The position numbers and the translations under genes were made by a program. From sequence record OK272470.1: a stretch of DNA of 64,000 nucleotides, one strand, 5' to 3'. Numbering within the stretch: the stretch's first letter is position 1; each line of letters begins with the position of its first letter. Positions 7,994 through 53,716 of the stretch are shown piece after piece. The stretch is from Escherichia phage JLBYU50. The notes below the pieces were generated by a model. The model had not been told where the DNA came from. It saw nothing but the letters and a program-made list of their open reading frames with translations, and searched no databases.

Positions 7994-8887
7994 ATGAAAG
8001 TTAGTATTCTGCATGGTGTTGACTGTTATGTTACTGATGTAGACGTTAAAGTCTTTACATTCTCTGGTGGAGAACAGCATGTTCAACTAGATACGAATCT
8101 ATCAGGTTTCAATCATGCTACAGACAGAATCTTACTCACTTTAGAAGTAAGATCTGCTAAAGACTTGATGACTTTGGTTATGACTAAGAATGCATTGGAC
8201 AATATGCTATATCATAAACCATATTGTGTTGATTTGCTCATGTTGTATGTGCCGTATGCACGACAAGACAGAGTGTGTGAGCCTGGGGAAGCATTCGGAG
8301 TTAAAGCCTTTGCTTCTATAATTAATTCATTAAATTTCTCACGTGTTATCGTTGCTGATCCACATAGTGATGTTACGCCAGCAGTGTTTGACAGACTCTG
8401 TGTAATACCTCAAGAAGAGATTGCTTACGAAACTTTAAAGTGGAAGTTACGTATGGAGAATTTTGCTCTTGTTAGTCCTGATGGTGGTGCTCTTAAGAAA
8501 ATATTTAAATTATCTAAGAAAATGTCTTTAGATGTGTTCTGTGCAGAGAAGGTTAGAGATACTGCAACAGGTGCTATTGTTCGTACAGACATTTCTGTAC
8601 AGGATTTCAATAAGCGTAACCTGATGATCGTAGATGATATCTGTGATGGTGGTAGAACTTTTATCGAATTGGCTAAAGTGCTACGTGCTCGTAACGCAGG
8701 TAAGATTGAGTTATATGTTACACACGGTATCTTTTCTAAAGGTCTTAAAGAGTTAAGTGAGCACTTTGACTGCATTCATTCTCTTAATGTGTGGGAAGAT
8801 AACATCCAAGAAGATTCCGGTGTTCTTGTTAAGAATCAGCCAGATTTGCAACAACAAATTGTATCTCCATACGTGTGGAATTTTTAA
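7994..8887 (+). CDS. ribose-phosphate pyrophosphokinase (Prs)-like protein; candidate PRPP or ADP-ribose pyrophosphokinase
   Basis: YVPYARQDR, VIVADPHS, VSPDGGAL and PRTase-type nucleotide loop LMIVDDICDGGRTF; strong RBS. Confidence 0.8.
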   Translation: MKVSILHGVDCYVTDVDVKVFTFSGGEQHVQLDTNLSGFNHATDRILLTLEVRSAKDLMTLVMTKNALDNMLYHKPYCVDLLMLYVPYARQDRVCEPGEAFGVKAFASIINSLNFSRVIVADPHSDVTPAVFDRLCVIPQEEIAYETLKWKLRMENFALVSPDGGALKKIFKLSKKMSLDVFCAEKVRDTATGAIVRTDISVQDFNKRNLMIVDDICDGGRTFIELAKVLRARNAGKIELYVTHGIFSKGLKELSEHFDCIHSLNVWEDNIQEDSGVLVKNQPDLQQQIVSPYVWNF

Positions 8888-8897
8888 ATAATAAGTG

Positions 8898-8926
8898 TTG
8901 ACAATAGGGAGTATGCTTAGTAAGAT
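8898..8926 (+). promoter_or_regulatory. sigma70-like promoter upstream of Nampt-family gene
   Basis: TTGACA 8898-8903, 17-nt spacer, TAAGAT 8921-8926. Confidence 0.5.
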
Positions 8927-8958
8927 ACTCCCACACTAACAAACAAGGAGACATAACT

Positions 8959-10692
8959 ATGAATATTTTTGCACCTTTTGCTACTGATTGGTATAAACCT
9001 GGTCACAAGCAGATGTACAACCAAAATACAAAACTCATTTTCTCTAATTTAACTCCTCGTAATGATAAAAACTTTGCACACTATGCAGATCGTGAAGCAC
9101 GTGGTGTGATTGTTTTAGGTATTCGTCGAGCAGTTACTGATGCTCTTGTAACTATGTGGGATGGCTTCTTTAAAATGTCTCGTAGTGCAGCAGTAAATAA
9201 ATTTTATCGTATGTCTAAGAATGCATTAGGTGCTTCTGCTCCTTCTGCTGAATGTTGGGGAGAATTGCACGATTTAGGTTATCTTCCGCTAGAAGTTCGA
9301 TCTCTGCCAGAAGGTGTTTTGTGTCCTATTGGTGTTCCTGTGTTTACTGTGCATAACACTTTAGAAAAATTCTTTTGGTTAACTAACTATGTGGAAACAC
9401 TCTTGTCAGATGAAACTTGGAAGACAATGACTAATGCCACAGCAGCTTTTCAGTATAAGCGTATCGCTATGGCGTATGCGATGGCAACGTGTGATAACAT
9501 TGATCACGTTAATTTCCAGTGTCATGATTTTAGTCTACGTGGCTTAAGCAATATCGAAGATGGTTATAAGAGTGGTATCGCTCATTTGGCATCTTTCACA
9601 GGAACAGATAATATTCTGGCTATTGAAACTGTGCATGATTACTATGGTATTGATTATGATCAATTTGTTGCAGGTTCTATTCCGGCAACAGAACATTCAG
9701 TAGCAACGACTAATATTGGAGCTATTGTTGAAGATCTGAAGAAACATTTCCCACATCTTAAAGATGATGTTGATGGGCTTCGTTATGTAGCAGAGAAAGA
9801 GTTTCTTCGCCGCTATATTGAAGAAATTGTTCCAGAAGGTTTTTGTTCATATGTAGCAGATTCTTATGATTACTGGGCTGTCTTGACTCGCATTCTGGTA
9901 GAATTGAAAGAGTCCATTATGTCACGAAATGGTCGTCTTGTTATTCGTCCAGATTCAGGAGATCCGGTTAAAGTTGTTGCAGGATACAATGTTGAATCTT
10001 TTGATAACTATGAAGACCTTTTAAATAATGGTATTGCGACAGCTACTGAAGTAGTTCATTTGGCTGATGTTAATAAGTATTACAATGTTCTTCAGGATTG
10101 TAGCGTTGCTGATTGTATTGATGAAACTTATGAGATTCCTTATTGTGAAGCAGTAGGTTCTATTCAAATCCTTTGGGAAGTGTTTGGCGGTACTATCAAT
10201 CGAAAAGGCTACAAGGTTCTTGATCAGCACATCGGTATGATTTATGGTGATTCTATTACTGTTGAACGAGAACACGAAATCTTACTCCGACTGAAGAAGA
10301 AAGGCTTTGCTGCTTCCAATATTGTATTTGGTGTTGGTAGTTATACTTATCAGTTCAATACACGAGATACTTTTGGTTTTGCTGTTAAAGCAACAGGTAG
10401 TATCATCGGTGAACACGAAATTTTGGTAAGTAAGGAGCCTAAAACTGATCCTGGTAAACGCTCTGCAAAAGGTTTTATTAAGGTTGTTAAGGATACAAAT
10501 GGTAAACTTTCTCTTGTGGATAATCTTTCTTTTAAAGATATTCAAGATGAAGACAATGAGTTAAAAGTTATCTTCAGGGATGGTACGGTTATTACACCAC
10601 AAGTAGAAGGACGTGATGAAACATTTACTGATATCCGCAACCGTGTTGATGTAGAGGTTCTTCGTACTATGGGAACCATCCAGGTTGACTAA
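8959..10692 (+). CDS. nicotinamide phosphoribosyltransferase (Nampt)-family protein
   Basis: block-by-block match to Nampt: ATDWYKPGHKQ, LPEGV..FTVHNT..FWLTNYVETLL, HDFSLRGLS, FTGTDN, PATEHSV, ADSYDYW, VIRPDSGDP, IVFGVGS..NTRD, DPGKRSAKG. Confidence 0.85.
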   Translation: MNIFAPFATDWYKPGHKQMYNQNTKLIFSNLTPRNDKNFAHYADREARGVIVLGIRRAVTDALVTMWDGFFKMSRSAAVNKFYRMSKNALGASAPSAECWGELHDLGYLPLEVRSLPEGVLCPIGVPVFTVHNTLEKFFWLTNYVETLLSDETWKTMTNATAAFQYKRIAMAYAMATCDNIDHVNFQCHDFSLRGLSNIEDGYKSGIAHLASFTGTDNILAIETVHDYYGIDYDQFVAGSIPATEHSVATTNIGAIVEDLKKHFPHLKDDVDGLRYVAEKEFLRRYIEEIVPEGFCSYVADSYDYWAVLTRILVELKESIMSRNGRLVIRPDSGDPVKVVAGYNVESFDNYEDLLNNGIATATEVVHLADVNKYYNVLQDCSVADCIDETYEIPYCEAVGSIQILWEVFGGTINRKGYKVLDQHIGMIYGDSITVEREHEILLRLKKKGFAASNIVFGVGSYTYQFNTRDTFGFAVKATGSIIGEHEILVSKEPKTDPGKRSAKGFIKVVKDTNGKLSLVDNLSFKDIQDEDNELKVIFRDGTVITPQVEGRDETFTDIRNRVDVEVLRTMGTIQVD

Positions 10693-37234: not shown

Positions 37235-39394
37235 ATGAAACAGGCTATTTTTACTGTAACTCGAAATACGAGAGTAAATGCCAGTTCATTCAGCTATAAG
37301 ACCGTCGATGGAACGGCGGTCGCTGGTAGAGATTATGTAGCTAAACAGGGAACAGTAACGTTCCCTTCTGATGCAGATTCTGCTACTGTAGTGGTTGATG
37401 TATATGAACGTCCGGCAAACTCTTTAGATCTTTATTTTACTCTTGAGATTACTAGCATAAGTCAAAATAACATGATGATCAACGAAGAAATTCGTTGTGT
37501 TATTACGACTGATCAATCGAATACAACCCCACTAACTTGGCCTGTTGTGAAGTCTAGAATGTTTGATCCTAAGTTTTGGACAATAGATTCTCAAGCAACA
37601 GAGAGCTGTTCTATTATCTCTAATGGTGATTCTTTCACAGCAAGAATGGTTAATAGGACAGTGGCTGGTCTTGCTGGGATTATTTGGTCAACTTACGATA
37701 AATATGATCACAAAGGATTAGGCTACCAAGAACATTCTGACTTAAGTAAAGAGAAACTTTGGTTTAAAATGGAACTTAGTCAAGGTGTTCCTGGATTAAA
37801 AGAAGAAAAATTATTGCCATCCTTAACAGTGACACTGAAGGATGAAACAGTTCATTATGTATCTCTAAACTTTTATGCAGAAGAAGTTTCAGAGGACGGT
37901 AAAACAGCAACAATAAAATTAGATTTCTCAAATTTAAAATCTGGGCCAGAAAATGATATTGTTGTTGACACTACACAGATAGATAATATGTTCTTCTCCT
38001 TGATCTCCACAAGGTATCAAGAAATTGAAGATGTTATACCTGTAGACAATATGGATCTTTCCTTTAAGTTTACCATACTAGAGCCTGATACTGGTTACAG
38101 TATGATGAATATGGGTAATTTAAATGTTCCGGCGCACACCATAAGAATGTGTACATCTTATGATGATATGTATAACCTAACCCCAGAGCGAGTTATTTCT
38201 AACACCTATAGATTAGGTTATAGAGATATGATTAACCATTATAATGGTATGTCACACTATTATCAATTTAGTTGGGATGCTGGATCTAATAAATGGGCTT
38301 TGAACAGAACAGAATATTTAAACCCAGCAACAGAAGCCTGGTTTGACAATTTCCACGCTAATGCAAAAGCTATGGGCTACACAGTAATGAACTCCTTAAG
38401 TTTTGAACTTATGAGTACAGTGTGTCCTGTAGAATGGGTACAACATGCTTGGAATGATGATCTTGCTGCTACAGGTTATGAGCCACCAAGTTATGTTTTA
38501 TCTCCTTCAATTGATGAAGGGATGAATTATTTACAAGGTGTAATAAATAAGATAGCTTCTATATCCGCTGCCAATGATCTTCCTGTTATTATTCAGGTTG
38601 GTGAACCGTGGTGGTGGTATAACACAGCTACCAATCTACCGTGTATTTATGATTATACAACCAAAGTTGCATTTAATAATGAAACTGGATTATATGCACA
38701 AGATGTTGGTACAGTTAAGAATTATAAAACTGGTACACCATATGATGAATATTATGCATTCCTATCTAAAACATTAGGACTACGTGTTGCTAAGTTTGCA
38801 ACGGATACTAGATTAGCATATCCTGGAGCGAAAGTTACATTGTTACCATTTGTGCCATCCATTTTGGGTAATGGTATGATGGAGTTTGTTAACTTCCCTA
38901 AAGATTATTATATCCCAGAAAACTTTGACTTTTATTGTTCAGAATGTTATGACTGGTTGTTGGAAGGCAAGATGGAAAGATCTTTCGACGCTATCACAAT
39001 ACCTAATGAGCAACTAGGTTTTAGTTACGATAAGATACATTATCTTGCAGGGTTTGTTCCAGATGCAACTCTAGCACCATTATATGGCTTTGATCCTGAA
39101 TCAAACTATAGAACATATTTGTGGAAAATGATTATAGGCAATATTGTATTGAATGACCAGAAGTTTGTTGGTTTATATCAATACATATGGGCTTACCCAC
39201 AAATAATGCATGATTCAATAACTGTTCTTAATTCAAAATCCCAAGTGTTTTATATGGGTAATGTGCCTTTGAATTGCTACTTGCAAGATATCACTCTTAA
39301 ACAGGTAAATGTTGAGATTGCCACTATAAGTGGAATTACATTAGCCACTAAATCTGGAGAAGATTTAGTAACAACACAAAAATTTTATATATAG
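37235..39394 (+). CDS. tail/baseplate protein (719 aa)
   Basis: ORF track; AAGGAA RBS. Confidence 0.45.
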   Translation: MKQAIFTVTRNTRVNASSFSYKTVDGTAVAGRDYVAKQGTVTFPSDADSATVVVDVYERPANSLDLYFTLEITSISQNNMMINEEIRCVITTDQSNTTPLTWPVVKSRMFDPKFWTIDSQATESCSIISNGDSFTARMVNRTVAGLAGIIWSTYDKYDHKGLGYQEHSDLSKEKLWFKMELSQGVPGLKEEKLLPSLTVTLKDETVHYVSLNFYAEEVSEDGKTATIKLDFSNLKSGPENDIVVDTTQIDNMFFSLISTRYQEIEDVIPVDNMDLSFKFTILEPDTGYSMMNMGNLNVPAHTIRMCTSYDDMYNLTPERVISNTYRLGYRDMINHYNGMSHYYQFSWDAGSNKWALNRTEYLNPATEAWFDNFHANAKAMGYTVMNSLSFELMSTVCPVEWVQHAWNDDLAATGYEPPSYVLSPSIDEGMNYLQGVINKIASISAANDLPVIIQVGEPWWWYNTATNLPCIYDYTTKVAFNNETGLYAQDVGTVKNYKTGTPYDEYYAFLSKTLGLRVAKFATDTRLAYPGAKVTLLPFVPSILGNGMMEFVNFPKDYYIPENFDFYCSECYDWLLEGKMERSFDAITIPNEQLGFSYDKIHYLAGFVPDATLAPLYGFDPESNYRTYLWKMIIGNIVLNDQKFVGLYQYIWAYPQIMHDSITVLNSKSQVFYMGNVPLNCYLQDITLKQVNVEIATISGITLATKSGEDLVTTQKFYI

Positions 39395-39402
39395 GAGTAA
39401 AA

Positions 39403-41976
39403 ATGTCAACTACAATTACTAATTTACCCGAAACATCAAAAGTTAATGGTTCTGATTACCTGGTTTTAGACCAACCTGATAAGACTGTTAAAAGCACAGT
39501 TTCCAACTTTCTTGCTGACACTGGGGTGGTTTTAGCCACCCAGTTGAAAGATACAGATGGAGCAGATTTAATACAATCCTCAAATGGTAATACTGTTCAG
39601 GAAGAGTTGAATAACAATCTTCTTAATGATCGTGAACAGTGGCATCGTAGTCTTGCTGAGGCAGGGTTAACCCTTGTCAACGGTAGCTTTGAAGAAGGGG
39701 CTACAGTAAACAATAAGACGGATGCTGTTTGGCATATTGCTGGTGGGCAGTGCTATACGTGGGGTGGTGAATTTCCTAAAACAGTAGCTGCTGGTTCAAC
39801 TCCAGAAACATCTGGTGGCATTGGTCTTGGTGCATGGGTTAGTGTTGTGGATATGTCATTAAGGGATAATCTTTCAAACTCCAGTAATGATAATTACGGT
39901 GATGCGCTGGTAGCAGTTAAGCAGCCGTATACTACCGCAATAAGTAGAACGCAGCATGATAAAAATGCTGATGTACTTGATATTTCGGATTTTGGTGTAG
40001 ACATAACTGGTGCTTCTGATGAGGGTAGTAAGTTACAACAGATATTTAATGAGTTGGCCGCAGCAGGCAAGACTATTCGTATGCGCGGTTCTGTAAAGAC
40101 TACTATTAACCTAGATATAAGGTGTAACGTGCTGTTTGAGCAGGGTTTCAAACTAACTGGCGTGAAACTAGAAACTGGACCTCAGACTTACATTAATATT
40201 TTTAATCGTAATGTAGATGTAAGCCATATTATCCTAGATGGTATTGTTATGTGTTTCTACCCCGTAAGTTCCACTACTACTGTTAGAAACAAAAGATGTA
40301 TTACGTTTACATCCAACACGTTAGAAGATTCATGTGTTCAGGTGGGCGGTAATAACCTATCTGTACGTAACGTGTTAATTTCTAACAATACTTTTAAGAA
40401 CTCTGGGTCACGTATTCCAACAGCAATTCGCCTAACTAATGTCTCAAATATTGAGGTGAGTTTTAACCTTATCCATGAGTATGGTAGACCTATTTACCAA
40501 ACAGCAACCCGCTCTTTCTCCAACTACAATGTCAATATACACCACAATAATATGGTTTGTGAGTATGGTATAACTCTTGCGGGTACTACTGCTTTTAGGG
40601 TTAGTAAGTTCACAATTGCTGACAATGACATTGTTTGCGAGGTAAGAAATACAGCAACAGGTGGTCGGGATGGTATTGATGTAGTTTATGGTACTAGTGG
40701 TTTGATTACTAACAATAACATAAGGACAAACGGAAGAAGCCTTAGACTGTCTAATACTAAGGTAGATGTACTGTTTAACGATATGATATCCAGCGCAACC
40801 AGTGCATTCTCAGTATTAATGGCGAGTTGTTATGAGTCATCATTTGTTGGTAACACTGTTTTCAATAACTCAACTGCTGAAATTATTGTTGTACATGTGC
40901 AGGATGAAGCTGGTGGGCTTTACCGGAGTAATAACATTCGTGTGGAATCTAATACAATCAAGGGATTTGGTAGGCTGATTCGGGTATTAGATACAAAGGA
41001 TTATGTTGTCATCAATAACAGATTAATCAGAACATCAAACAATGGTAATGCAGTTATTATTGCGGATGGGACTAGTGACAGAGGCCAGGTGCATAGCAAT
41101 GTGGTAGTTGGTCCTGCTGGAGTGGTAGTATCTGATATAGGCGGAACCAACAATGCAACAACCCCTGCTGATACACTGCTGAGTGTTGCAGCTAACAGCA
41201 AGACCATAACAGCCGTGGCGAATGGATTAGTTGATCCAGACTTGAATAATTCGAAGGCATTCATCTTCAATGTTCAGGTGTCTGATGTTCAACTATTACG
41301 TGCGGTATCTTCTACAGGCTCAGGAAATGCTAAAACCGTATCTCAGTTCATGTCGGGTATAACTGGGGCAACTCTGGCATGGAATGGTACTGCCTTCCTA
41401 TCAGAGATGTCTGGACCACCAGATATATTTGTGAATGGTGTACTTCAAGATTCCTATGGTGCAGAAGACTATGTGTTCTACAGATCAGGGATGCTTATTG
41501 ATTCCCAGAATAAACTCAGTGTTAGAGACTTCCAGTGTATTGGGGATGGGGATACCATAAACGATGGGACTGGTAATATGACCCTTCGTAATATGGCAGC
41601 AGCACAATCGGCTGAGGGCGCTATTCACAGTGCTTTCTTCCGTGCTCCTCTTGTTATGAATGGCTCAGTGTATGACCCTACAGTAACAGGTATTGCATCT
41701 TCAGATTTGTTTAGCACAGCTCTAGATCCAAGAATGGCTATAGGACAAAAAGCTGATGGAACCTACGTTATTATTTGTGTTAATGGCAGAAACGCAGATG
41801 GGGTAAGTCCAGGCTGCACTATGCAGCAGCTAGCTTCTAAGTTTGTAGCCCTTGGTTGTATCAACGCAATGAATTTGGATGGCGGCGGTTCAGCTACTCT
41901 TTGGTATAACGGTGCTATCATTAATGACCCGGCGGATGGAAGTGAACGCCCTGTTTACCATTGTATGTATGTGTAA
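39403..41976 (+). CDS. tailspike-like protein: beta-helix body plus C-terminal NLDGGGS domain
   Basis: N/V/I-rich repetitive beta-helix-like middle region; C-terminal ...CINAMNLDGGGSATLWYNGAIINDPADGSERPVYHCM resembles the phosphodiester-glycosidase (NAGPA/DUF2233-type) signature. Confidence 0.55.
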   Translation: MSTTITNLPETSKVNGSDYLVLDQPDKTVKSTVSNFLADTGVVLATQLKDTDGADLIQSSNGNTVQEELNNNLLNDREQWHRSLAEAGLTLVNGSFEEGATVNNKTDAVWHIAGGQCYTWGGEFPKTVAAGSTPETSGGIGLGAWVSVVDMSLRDNLSNSSNDNYGDALVAVKQPYTTAISRTQHDKNADVLDISDFGVDITGASDEGSKLQQIFNELAAAGKTIRMRGSVKTTINLDIRCNVLFEQGFKLTGVKLETGPQTYINIFNRNVDVSHIILDGIVMCFYPVSSTTTVRNKRCITFTSNTLEDSCVQVGGNNLSVRNVLISNNTFKNSGSRIPTAIRLTNVSNIEVSFNLIHEYGRPIYQTATRSFSNYNVNIHHNNMVCEYGITLAGTTAFRVSKFTIADNDIVCEVRNTATGGRDGIDVVYGTSGLITNNNIRTNGRSLRLSNTKVDVLFNDMISSATSAFSVLMASCYESSFVGNTVFNNSTAEIIVVHVQDEAGGLYRSNNIRVESNTIKGFGRLIRVLDTKDYVVINNRLIRTSNNGNAVIIADGTSDRGQVHSNVVVGPAGVVVSDIGGTNNATTPADTLLSVAANSKTITAVANGLVDPDLNNSKAFIFNVQVSDVQLLRAVSSTGSGNAKTVSQFMSGITGATLAWNGTAFLSEMSGPPDIFVNGVLQDSYGAEDYVFYRSGMLIDSQNKLSVRDFQCIGDGDTINDGTGNMTLRNMAAAQSAEGAIHSAFFRAPLVMNGSVYDPTVTGIASSDLFSTALDPRMAIGQKADGTYVIICVNGRNADGVSPGCTMQQLASKFVALGCINAMNLDGGGSATLWYNGAIINDPADGSERPVYHCMYV

Positions 41977-48895: not shown

Positions 48896-50857
48896 GTGAT
48901 TTTAACACGTCCAAATAGTGCCATTGCAGACATGGTAGAGTCTCGCTATAGAAAGCGTAGAAGTTTTGCAAGTGGTTTTACCTTAAGAGATGCTCGTGAA
49001 GCATTGCTCTTTGAAGCTGACGGTAACTACTATCAGTGGAAAGGTTCTCTACCTAAAGTTGTACCTGCTAACTCTACTCCTACATCTACTGGAGGGATTT
49101 CAGATACAGCTTGGAAAAATGTGGGTAATGCAGATGACATTGCTCAAATAGAATCAGAATTAGATGCTATTGAAGCTGAAATTGAAGATCTTAGAGAATC
49201 CATTCCAGAAGCTGGTAAATCAGCTTACCAGATTGCCGTAGACAATGGTTTCCAAGGTACTGAGACAGACTGGTTGGCTTCTTTAAAAGGTGATCCAGGT
49301 GCTCCATTAAAGCTGCTAGGGACGCTATCTAATACCAACCAATTACCTACAACTGGAAACAATGCAGGAGATGCATGGATTGTAGGCGAGAATATGTATG
49401 CTTGGGATGGTACTGCTTGGAGAAAAGTAAACTCACAGGGGCCAGAAGGTAAATCAGCTTATCAAGTTTGGCTTGCAGCAGGAAACCAAGGTACAGAACT
49501 AGATTATCTTGCTTCAATTAAAGGTGATAAAGGGGAACCTGGCCCAGAGGGGCCACAAGGTGTGCCAGGTAACAATGCTAATGGTTTTGATTACCAAGGT
49601 GCAGCTAATTCCGTTTCAGATCTTCCTTCTGCATCTCCTGGAAACACATCTCAAGCATGGAGTATTGGTACATATCTATACGTGTCAAACGGTGTAGAAT
49701 GGATCAATATGGGCGCTATAGTGGGGCCAAAAGGAGATAAAGGCGACAAAGGAGATAAGGGTAACACTGGTGATTCTGCTTATCAAGTCTGGTTAAATGC
49801 TGGTAACGTTGGTACTATTGACGAATATATTGCCTCTCTGAAAGGAGAAAAAGGTGATAAGGGAGACAAGGGTGATCAAGGTGAGCAGGGTATACAAGGC
49901 TTGACGGGGCCAACTGGTGCAGGGTTGACAATTATTGATATTCTGACTGACACTTCTGAACTACCACAAACTGGAGAAGATGGTGATGGTTATCTGATCA
50001 ATAATGAACTTTGGGTTTGGTTGCAAGGAGCCACACAGTGGACAAATGTTGGTCGTTTAGCTGGTACTCCAATCACTGCAAAAGGACACGTTGCGTCTGC
50101 AAGTGCACTTCCTCCTACAGCCAATTACGGTGATGCTTATCTGACGGAAGATACAGGTCATCTTTACATTTACACCTATGATGAACAAACTCAAACTGCT
50201 GAATATGTAGATATGGGTAGTTTGAAAGGTGATAAGGGTGAAAAAGGTGACGCTGGTACTAACGGTACAGACGGTGCAACTTGGATTGTTAAAACAACAG
50301 ATCCAATCTCTAGTGATGGTAAACAAGGTGATTATGCCTTTAATATCTCCACTGGCGAGGTGTTCTTAAAAACATCTGCAACTGCCTGGACTTCTCAAGG
50401 TACACTGCCTAGCATCACAGATGCACCTAGTGACGGTAAAATTTATGCTCGTAAAGATGGAGCATGGGAAGAACTCACTAGTTCTGTAGATGGTCAAGAT
50501 ATAGTTCCAACAAAAGTAACAGCTAATTTTATAGAGGTTACAGCATACACCAACAACTCTGTTACAGGTGACTGGACACCTCCAGGAACACATAACATGA
50601 ATGTGTTGAATCTTACTGGTAACGCTACTATAAAAGCATGGCCTGGTGTCGAAGATAGCACAAAACCTAAACCATTCTCTGCAATAGTTTATCTTATCCA
50701 AGATGCCACTGGGGGTCATACTGTTACTTTAGATCCATCTTACAAAGTAATTGGTTCTAGTGATATTAATACAGATCCTAACGGAGTAACAATACTACAA
50801 CTAACATATTGTGGTATTGGCGATTACGTGGATGCTATTGTTGCTAAACGCACATAA
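48896..50857 (+). CDS. tail fibre with collagen-like G-X-Y tracts and internal triplication
   Basis: GTG start after AAAGGAG; GDKGEPGPEGPQGVPG, GPKGDKGDKGDKGNTGDS, KGEKGDKGDKGDQGEQGIQGLTGPTGAG, GDKGEKGDAGTNGTDGA; three copies of SAYQ.W..AGN.GT..DY.AS.KG. Confidence 0.6.
   Translation: MILTRPNSAIADMVESRYRKRRSFASGFTLRDAREALLFEADGNYYQWKGSLPKVVPANSTPTSTGGISDTAWKNVGNADDIAQIESELDAIEAEIEDLRESIPEAGKSAYQIAVDNGFQGTETDWLASLKGDPGAPLKLLGTLSNTNQLPTTGNNAGDAWIVGENMYAWDGTAWRKVNSQGPEGKSAYQVWLAAGNQGTELDYLASIKGDKGEPGPEGPQGVPGNNANGFDYQGAANSVSDLPSASPGNTSQAWSIGTYLYVSNGVEWINMGAIVGPKGDKGDKGDKGNTGDSAYQVWLNAGNVGTIDEYIASLKGEKGDKGDKGDQGEQGIQGLTGPTGAGLTIIDILTDTSELPQTGEDGDGYLINNELWVWLQGATQWTNVGRLAGTPITAKGHVASASALPPTANYGDAYLTEDTGHLYIYTYDEQTQTAEYVDMGSLKGDKGEKGDAGTNGTDGATWIVKTTDPISSDGKQGDYAFNISTGEVFLKTSATAWTSQGTLPSITDAPSDGKIYARKDGAWEELTSSVDGQDIVPTKVTANFIEVTAYTNNSVTGDWTPPGTHNMNVLNLTGNATIKAWPGVEDSTKPKPFSAIVYLIQDATGGHTVTLDPSYKVIGSSDINTDPNGVTILQLTYCGIGDYVDAIVAKRT
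49520..50280 (+). repeat. collagen-like triplet-repeat coding tracts (GGT/GAT/AAR-rich)
   Basis: repetitive ggtgataarggngan units at about 49522-49570, 49724-49775, 49840-49925 and 50228-50280. Confidence 0.6.
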
Positions 50858-50896: not shown

Positions 50897-53716
50897 ATGT
50901 ATCCTATTCCTTTATTTATGTCAACAACATCAGCTTCAGTAGTAACAGCTACATCTATAACCACTTCCTCTATTGGTATTGCAATAGTTGGTAGTAAAAA
51001 GCAACTGACATACACAGTTTCACCGGAAGATGGTGCGTTATTTGATATAGCTTTTTCATCTTCAGATAATACCAAAATGGTTATAGATAATAGTGGTATG
51101 ATGGAGTTTGTTGCCGAAGGTGGTTTTGATGCAATAATGACAGCTAAAAATAATTTAGGTGCTGTCTTAACTGATCAATCTGGTGGTTATGCTTCAGAAT
51201 TAAGCGTGTACACTGAAAGTCTATCAGCTATGGATGTAGGCACTACTCAACAGTTGGTTGCTACAATCAGTCCAGAAGGTGCTAAAGATCTTCCAGACAT
51301 GGTAATTACGTACACCACAACAGATCCAGAAGTAGCTACTGTAAGCCCTACAGGATTAATAACTGCTCTTAAAGATGGTAATTGCCGTATAGGTTGTACT
51401 GCAACTTATCAAGGAACAGTGGTGGCCTCTGATAGTTCTTATTTAGGTGTTAATGCTATTCCTGTTATTTCTAATGTAACAGCCGTGGCAAACAGCTATG
51501 GAGACGTTCGTGTTGCTTGGGATGTAGCTGATCCGCTAGATGGTGATACTTATACTGTAGAAGTATTAGATTTAAGTAATAATAGTGTTCAGTGGACTAC
51601 AACAACCACGAATACTTACGCTTACTTTGATATCTCTGACTCTATTCCTCTTTATGGGTTTGCTCCAACATACCTTAAAATTAGCGTTAAGAGCACCAAA
51701 GCAGCAGCCGTTATCTTTAATAACTCAATAGCTACAGATGATTCGTTCATTAAAGAAGTTATTGTTTTTGCTGGACAAGATAACGTAAATGCACACTTTA
51801 CAGAACTATCTGGTGCAAATAAAGCAGCAATGAGTAGCACAACAGCCCGTAATGCATATGCTACGCAACGTGGTTTAGCAAATGCTGAAGTTCTTCCGTT
51901 AAATACAGCTTCTGGATCATCAGCAGCAGATAAATATGCTGACGATAAAGCTGGAACAGGTACACCAGACAACTACTGGTATGATCTGGATAACACAGCA
52001 GATGGGCCATGCTTAACTAACTTTATCACTAAAGTCACACCTTATGCAAGTAAGGTTAAAGCCATTATTTGGGGACAAGGTGAAAATGATGCTGTATCAT
52101 CATCTTCAACTGTTGCAGGTAGATACAGTAACACTACACGTTACCATGATGCTACGATAGCTATCTTTGATAAGATGCGTACAATAGTTCCTGCTTCTCA
52201 AGCAAAAATTGTTTGGCAGATCCTGGGACGTTCTTATTTATATGGTGTAGAAGTTAATGGTGTGGATTGGCAGAAGTACAGAAATGTACAAAGAACCATC
52301 TCTACAGCACGTGATGATGTTATCATTGGTTCTTGGGTAGATGGTGCTGAACGTTACAGTGGTTATGTTTATGAAGAAGGTATTGATGGTCGTATCCATT
52401 ATATTTCTTCTGTATACCAAACAGCAGCTACAAAACTTGCTAAATCAGCAGCAGACGGTACAGACCTAACATCAACGTCACCTGTTTGGGTTGATATGGC
52501 TGTTCCAACTGGAGCAACAGCTACTTCCCAATCTAATCAAGATACAATTTTAGTATGGGATGCTCAAGGCTATAGTAAACACTACTTCCGTAATATTAAC
52601 GTCTTAACAGCATCTGTATTAACTGAACAAACGCTTAATACGAACAGCTATACGTTTACCTATGCAGATCAAGTAGAACAATATGGTTTTGCAGCAGGAA
52701 CTACTATATTTGATGTTGCATATTATGATGAAGCAAATGATGTGTTATCTCCTTTAGTACGTTTTAATGTTAACGTTACAGCAGGAACCGTAGAAGATAA
52801 ACCTGTAGTGATGGATTATGATTTAACACAAGAAACTCTTCCATCAGATGTTAAGGTTAATGGTGGGAACTCTTTTGCTCGTGCTTCTGGAGATACACTT
52901 GTAGCCACTAACACCTTGGTTGCTCCGTTGGAGTATGTTGGCACTACCCCTGTAGGTAGACGTGTAACAGCTAACACAGCTACACAAATTTTTGTCAACA
53001 ACGCCTTAACAAGCGCAAGCCCGTGGGTAAAGACCAACTTAACTGTTTCAACTTCATCTGATAAATCTCCGGCTGGAACTACTGCCAATGTATTCAAATT
53101 AACTCCGACTACAACATCTGGTAGTCATATCTTAACTGCAACATATACTAACGCGTACAACATATATGCCGGACGTAACTGGTCTGCCTCTGTTTTCTTG
53201 AAAGCGAACGGGATTACTAAGGCCAAACTAAGATTAAAAGCAGGAACTGAAGTTAATGAGGGTACTTTTGATTTAGCAGCAGGTACATTTACAGGAAGTG
53301 AAGCTAATATTATATCTATGGGTAACGGTTGGTATCGTGCTATTCTGCATAAAACAGGGATAGCCAAACAGTCCTCCATAAGTTTTGAAATAATTGCCTT
53401 GGATGCAACTGGTGCGGAGATTTTCGCTGGGGATGGTACTAGTAACCTTGCAGTTTGGTTGCCACAGCTTGAAGGTGCTCCTACAGGAGAAACATCAAAA
53501 GCTGGAGCGCCTTATGTCTGCACATATCCTGGAAGTTTAGGAGGAGTATCCTTCACTATACCAAGGAACGGACATACTGGTGTGGATGTTTACTATTCCA
53601 ACGGGGACGTTGTTCGTGACGTATTCTCTGGTACGGCATCTACTTGGACAATAAACTACTCCAGCTTGTACGATTGGGGATCAGTCTTTATTACAGGTTT
53701 GAAATATTACGACTAA
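50897..53716 (+). CDS. tail fibre/adhesin with Ig-like (Big_2-type) segment and SGNH/SASA-like esterase-fold domain
   Basis: 939 aa; VGTTQQLVATISPEG...ATVSPTGLITALKDGNCRIGCTATYQG resembles Big_2; VIVFAGQDN (about 51771) and IWGQGENDA (about 52071) resemble sialate-O-acetylesterase blocks I and III. Confidence 0.55.
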   Translation: MYPIPLFMSTTSASVVTATSITTSSIGIAIVGSKKQLTYTVSPEDGALFDIAFSSSDNTKMVIDNSGMMEFVAEGGFDAIMTAKNNLGAVLTDQSGGYASELSVYTESLSAMDVGTTQQLVATISPEGAKDLPDMVITYTTTDPEVATVSPTGLITALKDGNCRIGCTATYQGTVVASDSSYLGVNAIPVISNVTAVANSYGDVRVAWDVADPLDGDTYTVEVLDLSNNSVQWTTTTTNTYAYFDISDSIPLYGFAPTYLKISVKSTKAAAVIFNNSIATDDSFIKEVIVFAGQDNVNAHFTELSGANKAAMSSTTARNAYATQRGLANAEVLPLNTASGSSAADKYADDKAGTGTPDNYWYDLDNTADGPCLTNFITKVTPYASKVKAIIWGQGENDAVSSSSTVAGRYSNTTRYHDATIAIFDKMRTIVPASQAKIVWQILGRSYLYGVEVNGVDWQKYRNVQRTISTARDDVIIGSWVDGAERYSGYVYEEGIDGRIHYISSVYQTAATKLAKSAADGTDLTSTSPVWVDMAVPTGATATSQSNQDTILVWDAQGYSKHYFRNINVLTASVLTEQTLNTNSYTFTYADQVEQYGFAAGTTIFDVAYYDEANDVLSPLVRFNVNVTAGTVEDKPVVMDYDLTQETLPSDVKVNGGNSFARASGDTLVATNTLVAPLEYVGTTPVGRRVTANTATQIFVNNALTSASPWVKTNLTVSTSSDKSPAGTTANVFKLTPTTTSGSHILTATYTNAYNIYAGRNWSASVFLKANGITKAKLRLKAGTEVNEGTFDLAAGTFTGSEANIISMGNGWYRAILHKTGIAKQSSISFEIIALDATGAEIFAGDGTSNLAVWLPQLEGAPTGETSKAGAPYVCTYPGSLGGVSFTIPRNGHTGVDVYYSNGDVVRDVFSGTASTWTINYSSLYDWGSVFITGLKYYD

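What the first reader, a model, noticed from the sequence alone, without database searches (positions are those of the whole stretch)
51750..52400. Esterase-fold domain in tail fibre with the nucleophile Ser position replaced by Asp
Seen: VIVFAGQDN and IWGQGENDA match blocks I (GQSN) and III (WxQGExD) of SGNH/sialate-O-acetylesterase-type carbohydrate esterases, but the nucleophile position reads GQDN, and I could not find the distal D-x-x-H block. Inference: either a receptor-modifying O-acetylesterase with an atypical active site or a catalytically dead binding module. An Ig-like segment lies upstream in the same protein.
Basis: partly seen in the sequence, partly recalled or inferred. Interest (0 to 1): 0.45.

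Follow-up and report, generated by a model that had tools for sequence, protein, structure and literature searches.

The report
Tail-fibre esterase domain lacking its serine
A side tail-fibre protein of a phi92-like E. coli phage carries a well-folded sugar-acetylesterase domain in which the catalytic serine is permanently replaced by aspartate, so it is most likely a conserved sugar-binding or scaffold module and not a working enzyme.

Summary

In a family alignment from an exhaustive HMMER search, Asp295 sits in the nucleophile column, where 71 of 98 domains have Ser. The other SASA signature residues are present: Gln294, Gly340, QGE(N)D and a block V His501.

The Asp is not an error. Its GAT codon is unchanged in every Justusliebigvirus genome checked. 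The sister Avunavirus clade (47% identity) also has Asp, but there the rest of the site has decayed. The domain is under strong purifying selection (dN/dS 0.04-0.10).

Best reading: a pseudo-esterase kept as a glycan-binding module of a lateral tail fibre. Atypical Asp-based catalysis is not excluded. This is a new variant of a known kind, of moderate interest.

The parts
50897..53716 (+). Gene for the 939-aa lateral tail-fibre / tail protein. It is the orthologue of PaulScherrer bas60_0037 and of alia 'BIG2 domain-containing protein'; in phi92 it is the disrupted gp152/gp153.
   Evidence: ORF list. 98-99% identical proteins in Justusliebigvirus genomes, annotated tail protein, lateral tail fiber protein or tail carbohydrate esterase. 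PHROG 32204 'tail protein' E = 0.
51230..51406 (+). Bacterial Ig-like (Big_2) domain, best-scoring stretch (aa 112-170). A second, weaker stretch lies further upstream within aa ~30-190.
   Evidence: Pfam PF02368 E 1.2e-13, two stretches. PHROG hits to Ig-domain parts of tail and head proteins at aa 10-205. PDB 6n1a carbohydrate-binding protein, E 1.4e-4.
51464..51727 (+). Beta-sandwich (FN3-like) domain 1, aa 190-277, immediately before the esterase-like domain.
   Evidence: Full-length AF2 model: all-beta, pLDDT about 80-94 over aa 190-277. The segment is conserved together with the SGNH domain in relatives (consensus).
51749..52501 (+). SASA-type SGNH-fold domain (aa 285-535), the pseudo-esterase.
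51773..51784 (+). Block I, G293-Q294-D295-N296. Asp295 (GAT, 51779-51781) occupies the nucleophile Ser position. Gln294 is the SASA oxyanion Gln.
   Evidence: Family alignment: 71 of 98 domains have Ser in this column and 59 of 98 have Gln before it. It lies at the end of strand beta1 and the start of helix 295-301 in the model. GAT is invariant in the relatives checked.
51914..51931 (+). Block II-like motif G340-S-S-A-A-D345 (the block II Gly of the SGNH family).
   Evidence: Family consensus GSSAAD. Gly340 is replaced by Ile in the Avunavirus sister clade.
52070..52090 (+). Block III, W392-G-Q394-G-E396-N397-D398. It is the SASA (H)QGE motif and also reads as the classical GxND motif.
   Evidence: Pfam SASA hit centred here. 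Alignment to 1zmb 'iLWHQGESD'. The motif definition comes from the SGNH review PMC9487903.
52391..52402 (+). Block V, R499-I-H501-Y502. The His codon is at 52397-52399. The canonical Asp at -3 is Gly498, and Asp497 lies one residue further out.
   Evidence: It aligns with the family block D-x-[IV]-H-[YFL]. His is nearly invariant. 21 of the 58 Ser+His relatives also have Gly at -3.
52517..52783 (+). Beta-sandwich (FN3-like) domain 2, aa 541-629. The short 628-aa alleles end here.
   Evidence: AF2 pLDDT about 90. 628-aa alleles occur in PD06, ESCO8 and KKP_3264. Divergence jumps here against PD06 (dS 1.19).
52976..53485 (+). C-terminal head-spike-fibre-like (lectin-type) domain, aa 694-863. It is present only in the long allele.
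   Evidence: NCBIfam NF048003 GTA_spike_fiber, E 3.2e-19. PHROG 11600 at aa 606-937. The AF2 model has low confidence here.

Best explanation
The segment is a complete, well-folded SASA-type SGNH carbohydrate-esterase domain. It sits between two FN3-like beta-sandwiches in a lateral tail-fibre protein of a Justusliebigvirus (phi92-like) E. coli myophage.

The acyl-accepting serine of block I (GQSN) has been replaced by aspartate (GQDN), so the normal Ser-His acyl-enzyme mechanism cannot run.

The rest of the acetyl/oxyanion pocket is kept under purifying selection: Gln294, Gly340, the QGE network, Asn397 and His501. The domain therefore most likely works as a non-hydrolysing, lectin-like module. 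It would dock onto a surface polysaccharide, probably an acetylated one, and hold it without cleaving it. This would add avidity or specificity to the fibre, whose long allele also carries a distal lectin-type head.

Shown: the fold, the positional equivalence of Asp295 with the nucleophile, the derived and fixed state of the Asp, the retention of the other site residues, and purifying selection.

Inferred: loss of esterase activity, glycan binding, and the identity of the ligand.

For: 2. Asp295 is in the nucleophile column. 71 of 98 family domains have Ser there. GQSN was counted in 36 of the 80 domains with both blocks aligned.

3. Ser and the block V His co-occur. 58 of 61 Ser domains keep His, and 13 of 18 non-Ser domains have lost it (Fisher p 1.5e-8, not tree-corrected). 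This indicates that Ser is the catalytic partner in this family.

4. The Asp is ancient and fixed. In an NJ tree the window and Avunavirus (GGDN, 47% identity) are sisters, whereas P0007 and P0008 keep GQSN. GAT is invariant in all relatives inspected. The 45-aa block around it is 100% identical in 32 phage records and 95-99% identical in 22 more.

5. In the Avunavirus sister clade the SASA oxyanion residues have decayed: Q294G, G340I, Q394L, N397Q and H501Q in one member. Catalysis is evidently not needed in the Asp clade.

6. The domain is not decaying in the window lineage. dN/dS is 0.04-0.10, the lowest of the protein apart from one N-terminal comparison with no nonsynonymous change (33 synonymous against 8 nonsynonymous differences over three comparisons). 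All block residues are unchanged.

7. [quoted passage not shown] This fits a binding role.

8. Homologous SGNH-like domains are recurrent parts of receptor-binding virion proteins such as N4 gp65 (PDB 9lc0/9yf4, profile E 1.5e-80).
Against: - No binding or activity data exist for this protein.
- Keeping Gln294, the QGE motif, Asn397 and His501 while the sister clade lost them would also fit a site that is still catalytic with Asp.
- From background knowledge, Asp nucleophiles paired with His occur in another fold, the alpha/beta-hydrolase haloalkane dehalogenases and epoxide hydrolases.
- I could not read model coordinates, so the Asp295-His501 geometry and the openness of the pocket are unmeasured.
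- Asp is a good helix N-cap residue, so its conservation could be purely structural.
- The phi92 copy of the gene is disrupted, so the protein is dispensable at least for that laboratory phage.
- The ligand is unknown. Dependence of Bas60-62 on the NGR glycan is more simply explained by the separate gp64-like TIM-barrel fibre at window 37235-39394.
Confidence: 0.55

Rival explanations
1. Purely structural module. The SGNH fold is kept only as a rigid spacer or assembly scaffold between the two beta-sandwich domains. Asp295 is conserved because it caps helix alpha1, and no ligand is bound.
For: Asp295 lies at the N-terminus of helix 295-301. Another decayed family member has Glu at the same position (P0020, GHEN). 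N4 gp65's own second copy (INQF, no His) is a structural part of the sheath seen by cryo-EM. The Avunavirus copies have lost most pocket residues yet persist.
Against: In the window lineage every pocket residue (Q294, G340, Q394, E396, N397, H501) has been kept over the same time in which the sister clade lost four or five of them. A mere spacer would not be expected to do this. The domain also has the lowest or near-lowest dN/dS in the protein.
Confidence: 0.25
2. Active enzyme with a non-canonical centre. Asp295 would act as nucleophile (via an acyl-anhydride intermediate) or as general base with His501. The domain would still deacetylate, or otherwise modify, a host surface glycan as a receptor-modifying activity.
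For: All non-Ser catalytic and oxyanion residues are intact and conserved. The domain is under strong purifying selection. SGNH tail-fibre domains are commonly active esterases: G7C gp63.1 and Klebsiella prophage RBPs (PMC13123978; PMC10743462). Some GenBank records already name the protein 'tail carbohydrate esterase'.
Against: The SGNH review read here treats the block I Ser as the strictly conserved nucleophile and mentions no Asp-nucleophile member (PMC9487903); I did not search for one specifically. Within this family, Ser loss is normally followed by His loss. The only other clade with Asp at this position has lost the oxyanion hole. A close relative has Ala at the same position with the rest intact (P0006, GQAN), and that pattern cannot be catalytic.
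Confidence: 0.12
3. Not a real feature: either a chance resemblance of two short motifs, or a sequencing error at the Asp codon.
For: The window protein alone does not reach the Pfam SASA gathering score (14.4-17.0 bits against 24.8).
Confidence: 0.01

Closest known systems
SASA / CE6 sialate-O-acetylesterase family (Pfam PF03629; E. coli NanS 3PT5, C. acetobutylicum CAC0529 1ZMB, Arabidopsis At4g34215 2APJ)
   Different: The nucleophile Ser is Asp. The sequence is too diverged to pass the Pfam threshold. The domain is embedded in a phage tail-fibre protein between FN3-like domains, whereas the known members are mostly free enzymes.
SGNH-like domains of the phage N4 non-contractile tail sheath protein gp65 (PDB 9LC0, 9YF4/5; Pfam NCTSP families for the neighbouring domains)
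   Same: True homologues. The family profile hits gp65 twice (aa 435-602 and 726-980) with E 1.5e-80, and gp65 is the best Foldseek match. Both are virion receptor-binding proteins. Close relatives of the window domain (P0006, P0008) carry NCTSP_N and the NCTSP TIM barrel in the same chain.
   Different: N4 is a podophage and gp65 forms a sheath with gp64. Here there is a single complete copy in a myophage side fibre. gp65 copy 1 keeps Ser but is a half-domain, and copy 2 of N4 itself has lost Ser and His. The window domain has lost only the Ser.
Esterase tailspikes and tail fibres with active SGNH domains (phage G7C gp63.1, PDB 4QNL; Klebsiella prophage SGNH RBPs)
   Different: Those proteins have the canonical Ser-His(-Asp) centre and measured esterase activity. 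They belong to the GDSL branch and not the SASA branch. No activity is known or expected here.
CE2 esterases whose active-site cleft doubles as a non-catalytic carbohydrate-binding site (PDB 2W9X, 2WAO)
   Same: A precedent that an SGNH active-site cleft can serve as a glycan-binding surface. Both are fold-search hits.
   Different: CE2 enzymes keep the Ser-His dyad, and binding is an added function. Here the nucleophile itself is gone.

Membership tests
SGNH hydrolase superfamily | Three-layer alpha/beta/alpha fold with a central parallel sheet, with the nucleophile position after strand beta1 | tested here: met
SGNH hydrolase superfamily | Block I catalytic Ser (the nucleophile) | tested here: not met
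   Asp295 (GAT) occupies the column where 71 of 98 family domains have Ser. No Ser lies within three residues.
SGNH hydrolase superfamily | [quoted passage not shown] | tested here: met
   Gly340 in GSSAAD and Asn397 in GQGENDA align with the family consensus. Geometry was not measured.
SGNH hydrolase superfamily | Block V D-x-x-H (catalytic His, with Asp at -3) | tested here: inconclusive
   His501 is present and nearly invariant in the family. Position -3 is Gly498, with Asp497 at -4. Asp is dispensable in NanS and many CE2 enzymes (PMC9487903).
SASA / CE6 (Pfam PF03629) | Score above the Pfam gathering threshold | tested here: not met
   14.4 bits for the whole protein and 17.0 bits for the domain, against a cut-off of 24.8. 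18 of 29 relatives match at E <= 0.01, best 5e-13. Avunavirus P0004 scores 25.0 bits.
SASA / CE6 (Pfam PF03629) | Gln adjacent to the nucleophile plus the (H)QGE block III ('inverted' oxyanion hole) | tested here: met
   G-Q294-D-N and W-G-Q394-G-E396. The definition comes from PMC9487903. The block aligns to 1zmb 'LWHQGESD'.
SASA / CE6 (Pfam PF03629) | O-acetylesterase activity on sialic acid or another acetylated sugar | not testable with these tools
   This needs a pNP-acetate or acetylated-glycan assay on the purified protein.
N4 gp65-type (non-contractile tail sheath protein) SGNH-like domain | Significant sequence and structure homology to the gp65 domains | tested here: met
   Profile against PDB 9lc0_I: E 1.5e-80, two copies. 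Foldseek E 3e-13, TM 0.75-0.79. tblastn of gp65 against the window, E 2e-12 and 5e-12.
N4 gp65-type (non-contractile tail sheath protein) SGNH-like domain | Forms a sheath around a short tail tube, paired with a gp64-type subunit | not tested
   The window phage is a myophage. The position of this protein in the virion is unknown, and the phi92 cryo-EM paper does not mention gp152/153.

The most novel reading that the evidence does not exclude
Asp295 and His501, in an otherwise intact SASA pocket, form a working catalytic centre. Asp would act as nucleophile or general base. That would make this the first SGNH-fold carbohydrate esterase or transferase that does not use serine, operating on a host surface glycan during adsorption.
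Probability: 0.1. Interest if true: 0.75.

Novelty: new variant of a known kind. Interest (0 to 1): 0.4.

Why it matters
[quoted passage not shown] Their many side fibres are only partly assigned, even in the 2026 phi92 cryo-EM study.

This fibre is variously labelled 'tail carbohydrate esterase', 'glycosidase domain' or 'BIG2 domain protein'. Knowing that its esterase domain lacks the nucleophile prevents a wrong functional annotation. It also points to a testable case of an enzyme converted into a lectin within a receptor-binding protein.

The family analysis links the domain to the N4 sheath protein gp65. It shows repeated loss of the nucleophile in virion-borne SGNH domains, which is useful when predicting from sequence which phage 'esterases' are really active.

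Tried and rejected
- **Word-indexed protein search:** the domain returned only two near-identical fragments, which was useless for diversity. I replaced it with the exhaustive HMMER search.
- **IMG/VR scans:** a protein scan and a degenerate block I DNA pattern both found only two near-identical contigs.
- **First structure job:** I re-ran it without them.
- **NCBIfam:** it gave nothing for the esterase region.
- **Second copy in the window:** I looked for a second, intact copy of the domain, or an alternative Ser. There is none.
- **NGR glycan module:** I considered that the domain is the NGR-glycan recognition module shared with N4. I rejected this as the simplest reading. The fibre that BASEL aligned with N4 gp64 for its predicted deacetylase domain corresponds in this phage to window 37235-39394 (NCTSP_N + TIM barrel). 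No phage labelled rV5-like appeared among the rows and organism tallies shown, although those phages also depend on wecB/nfrB.
- **Literature:** searches for gp152/gp153, Stephanstirmvirinae fibres and SGNH pseudo-esterases found nothing specific. The N4 structure paper in Structure 2025 is not held.
- **Model coordinates:** they cannot be read with these tools, so no Asp295-His501 distance was obtained.
- **Full-length AF2 model:** it is confident only for aa 190-630.
Full report
**What is there.** The finding lies in one ORF, window 50897-53716 on the + strand, encoding 939 aa. VIVFAGQDN is aa 288-296 (nt 51758-51784) and IWGQGENDA is aa 391-399 (nt 52067-52093). The window is a Justusliebigvirus (phi92-like, Stephanstirmvirinae) E. 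coli myophage. The 15 kb around the gene is 97-99% identical to phages Antha, Paula, ALITA, alia and PaulScherrer. The protein is 98-99% identical to proteins annotated 'tail protein', 'lateral tail fiber protein', 'non-contractile tail sheath' or 'tail carbohydrate esterase'. In PaulScherrer (Bas60) it is bas60_0037, 'lateral tail fiber protein with intimin and glycosidase domains'. It is the last gene of the tail-fibre cluster, after the colanidase tailspike and a collagen-like fibre.

**Domain anatomy.**
- Pfam finds Big_2 Ig-like domains at the N-terminus (E 1.2e-13) and only a sub-threshold SASA hit (E 0.029, aa 374-433).
- NCBIfam finds a GTA head-spike-fibre domain at aa 694-863 (E 3e-19).
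- A full-length AF2 model is confident only for aa 190-630. It shows a beta-sandwich (190-277), an alpha/beta domain (285-535) and a second beta-sandwich (541-629).
- This beta-sandwich/SGNH/beta-sandwich cassette is conserved as a unit in relatives.

**Is it an esterase fold?** Yes.
- An exhaustive HMMER search with aa 273-540 found 76 cluster representatives.
- With 26 of them as the alignment, AF2 gave pLDDT 94.5 and pTM 0.92.
- Foldseek agrees.
- 18 of 29 family members hit Pfam SASA individually, best E 5e-13. Some relatives are named 'sialate O-acetylesterase' or 'non-contractile tail sheath protein' by NCBI.

**Is Asp295 at the nucleophile position?** Yes. In the HMM-based family alignment the consensus blocks are GQSNxxxH, GSSAAD, WAQGE(N/Q)DA, QxxGR and D-x-[IV]-H-[YFL].
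- Among 98 distinct domains with block I aligned, the column of Asp295 holds Ser in 71, Asp in 7, Ala in 5 and other residues in the rest. The preceding column is Gln in 59.
- In the model, Asp295 follows strand 287-293 and starts helix 295-301. This is the place of the SGNH nucleophile turn.
- The SGNH review defines SASA enzymes by the Gln next to the Ser and by the (H)QGE block III that orients it. It also notes that NanS lacks the block V Asp (PMC9487903).
- The window protein has Gln294, QGE (394-396), Asn397 and His501 in DGRIHY (nt 52385-52402). The -3 position is Gly498, as in 21 of the 58 relatives that keep both Ser and His.
- Every signature is therefore present except the Ser.

**Is the Asp an error or a recent accident?** No.
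- The GAT codon is identical in the window, two IMG/VR contigs, PaulScherrer, PHB05, ESCO8 and Serratia phage KKP_3264.
- The 45-aa block around it is 100% identical in 32 phage records and 95-99% identical in 22 more. In the relatives inspected, the substitutions fall elsewhere.
- In an NJ tree the window domain is sister to the Avunavirus domain (47% identity), which reads GGDN. The next relatives read GQSN (P0007, P0008) or GQAN (P0006).
- One Ser-to-Asp change that has persisted through about 50% sequence divergence is the most economical reading.

**What the family says about function.**
- Across 79 distinct domains with both blocks aligned, Ser and the block V His go together. 58 of 61 Ser domains keep His, and 13 of 18 non-Ser domains have lost it (Fisher p 1.5e-8, not corrected for phylogeny).
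- The Avunavirus copies that share the Asp have also lost Gln294 (Gly), Gly340 (Ile), Gln394 (Leu) and Asn397 (Gln). One of them has lost His501 (Gln). Catalysis is evidently not required in the Asp clade.
- By contrast, the window lineage keeps all of these residues.
- Its SGNH domain has the lowest or near-lowest dN/dS in the protein: 0.04, 0.07 and 0.10 against three relatives. That is 33 synonymous against 8 nonsynonymous differences, and the counts are small.
- Keeping a complete pocket without its nucleophile is the usual signature of an enzyme turned into a binding module. A pure spacer would not be expected to keep it, and atypical catalysis cannot be ruled out from sequence alone.
- Short alleles of 628 aa (PD06, ESCO8, KKP_3264) and the 647-aa Avunavirus protein end just after the second beta-sandwich. 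In those proteins the SGNH domain is the last large globular domain. This fits a role at the business end of the fibre.

**Mechanism proposed.** The fibre presents a SASA-type pocket that can still accommodate an acetylated sugar. It cannot form the acyl-enzyme, so it binds without cleaving. It acts together with the Ig-like domains and, in the long allele, the distal lectin-type domain. The ligand is unknown.
- Bas60-62 need the NGR glycan, wecB and nfrB, as N4 does. However, the module held responsible in the literature is the gp64-like 'deacetylase' fibre. In this window that fibre is a different gene, 37235-39394, with Pfam NCTSP_N and the NCTSP TIM barrel.
- Other candidate ligands are O-acetylated E. 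coli glycans such as colanic acid, ECA and O-acetylated polysialic acid. This is background knowledge and was not tested.

**Comparison with what is known.**
- SGNH esterase domains in phage receptor-binding proteins are well known and often active: G7C gp63.1 and Klebsiella prophage RBPs.
- The domain here belongs to the SASA branch and is homologous to two domains of the N4 sheath protein gp65 (profile E 1.5e-80). The main text of the 2026 N4 structure paper contains neither 'hydrolase' nor 'SGNH'.
- I found no paper that discusses this Justusliebigvirus protein, its phi92 counterparts gp152/gp153, or an SGNH domain with Asp in place of the Ser.
- It fails the membership test for an SGNH or SASA enzyme on the single defining catalytic residue, while meeting the fold and all other motif criteria. 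It is best filed as a pseudo-enzyme variant of that family.

**Verdict.** The 'dead binding module' branch is favoured (0.55) over a purely structural role (0.25) and atypical catalysis (0.12). Interest is moderate. It is a clean, conserved and testable example of nucleophile loss in a virion-borne esterase fold, but it is not a new kind of system.

Noticed in passing
L012 (N4-like phage vB_Eco_SPSP) 141-5575; L008 1871-7323; L007 1883-7259; L005 1529-8226: In N4-like phages the first SGNH-like copy of gp65 (aa ~429-605) contains only blocks I-III. The N-terminal ~65 aa of the downstream-encoded sheath partner gp64 matches the missing C-terminal third, including the block V His (E 7e-9, 2e-12 and 1e-9 in three phages). 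The three phages whose gp65 keeps Ser (GESQ, GESN, GQSN) have that His. phiAxp-2, whose gp65 reads GDHT, has no aligned His. This suggests one SGNH active site assembled from two polypeptides in the gp64:gp65 heterodimer.
   Followed up: partly
window 37235-39394 (+): This 719-aa 'lateral tail fibre' has Calx-beta, NCTSP_N (PF23844) and NCTSP TIM-barrel (PF23845) domains. It matches N4 gp64 aa 107-367 (E 5e-31) and N-terminal pieces of gp65. The N4 sheath modules are thus split over two fibre genes in this myophage. The closest relatives of the esterase-like domain (P0006, P0008) carry NCTSP_N, the TIM barrel and SGNH in a single chain.
   Followed up: partly
L011 (phi92, FR775895.2) 8411-10073, equivalent to window 50897-52780: In phi92 itself the gene is broken, and it is annotated as gp152 plus gp153. 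Relative to the window there is a 218-nt deletion (window gene nt 591-808) and a further frame change near aa 335. The homologous reading frame ends at aa 628. The protein is therefore probably non-functional or dispensable in the reference phage.
   Followed up: partly
window 52514-53716; L002 (PD06), L017 (ESCO8), L018 (KKP_3264): The gene has two allele types: 939 aa with the C-terminal head-spike-fibre-like domain, and 628 aa without it. Against PD06, divergence jumps from dS ~0.10 in aa 1-535 to dS 1.19 in aa 536-628. This points to a recombination junction right after the SGNH domain.
   Followed up: partly
GenBank MG065639, MG065656, MG065689, MG065645 (hits H68, H69, H88, H126): Four records named 'Campylobacter phage' (A150, C3, A110a, A145; ~146 kb, unannotated) carry this gene at ~99% identity to E. 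coli Justusliebigvirus phages. They look mislabelled or contaminated.
   Followed up: no
window 52100-52102 (aa 402): The window has Ser402, four residues after block III, where all three relatives compared residue by residue have Ala. No INPHARED record reaches 99% identity over the surrounding 75 aa, which suggests this change may be private to the window.
   Followed up: no
window 39403-41976 (+) and 48896-50857 (+): Two neighbouring fibre genes carry the Tail_spike_N (TSP1/N4 gp66-type) adaptor domain. One also has a C-terminal NAGPA phosphodiester-glycosidase domain, and the other has collagen repeats. The esterase-like fibre has no such adaptor, so how it attaches to the baseplate is unclear.
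   Followed up: no
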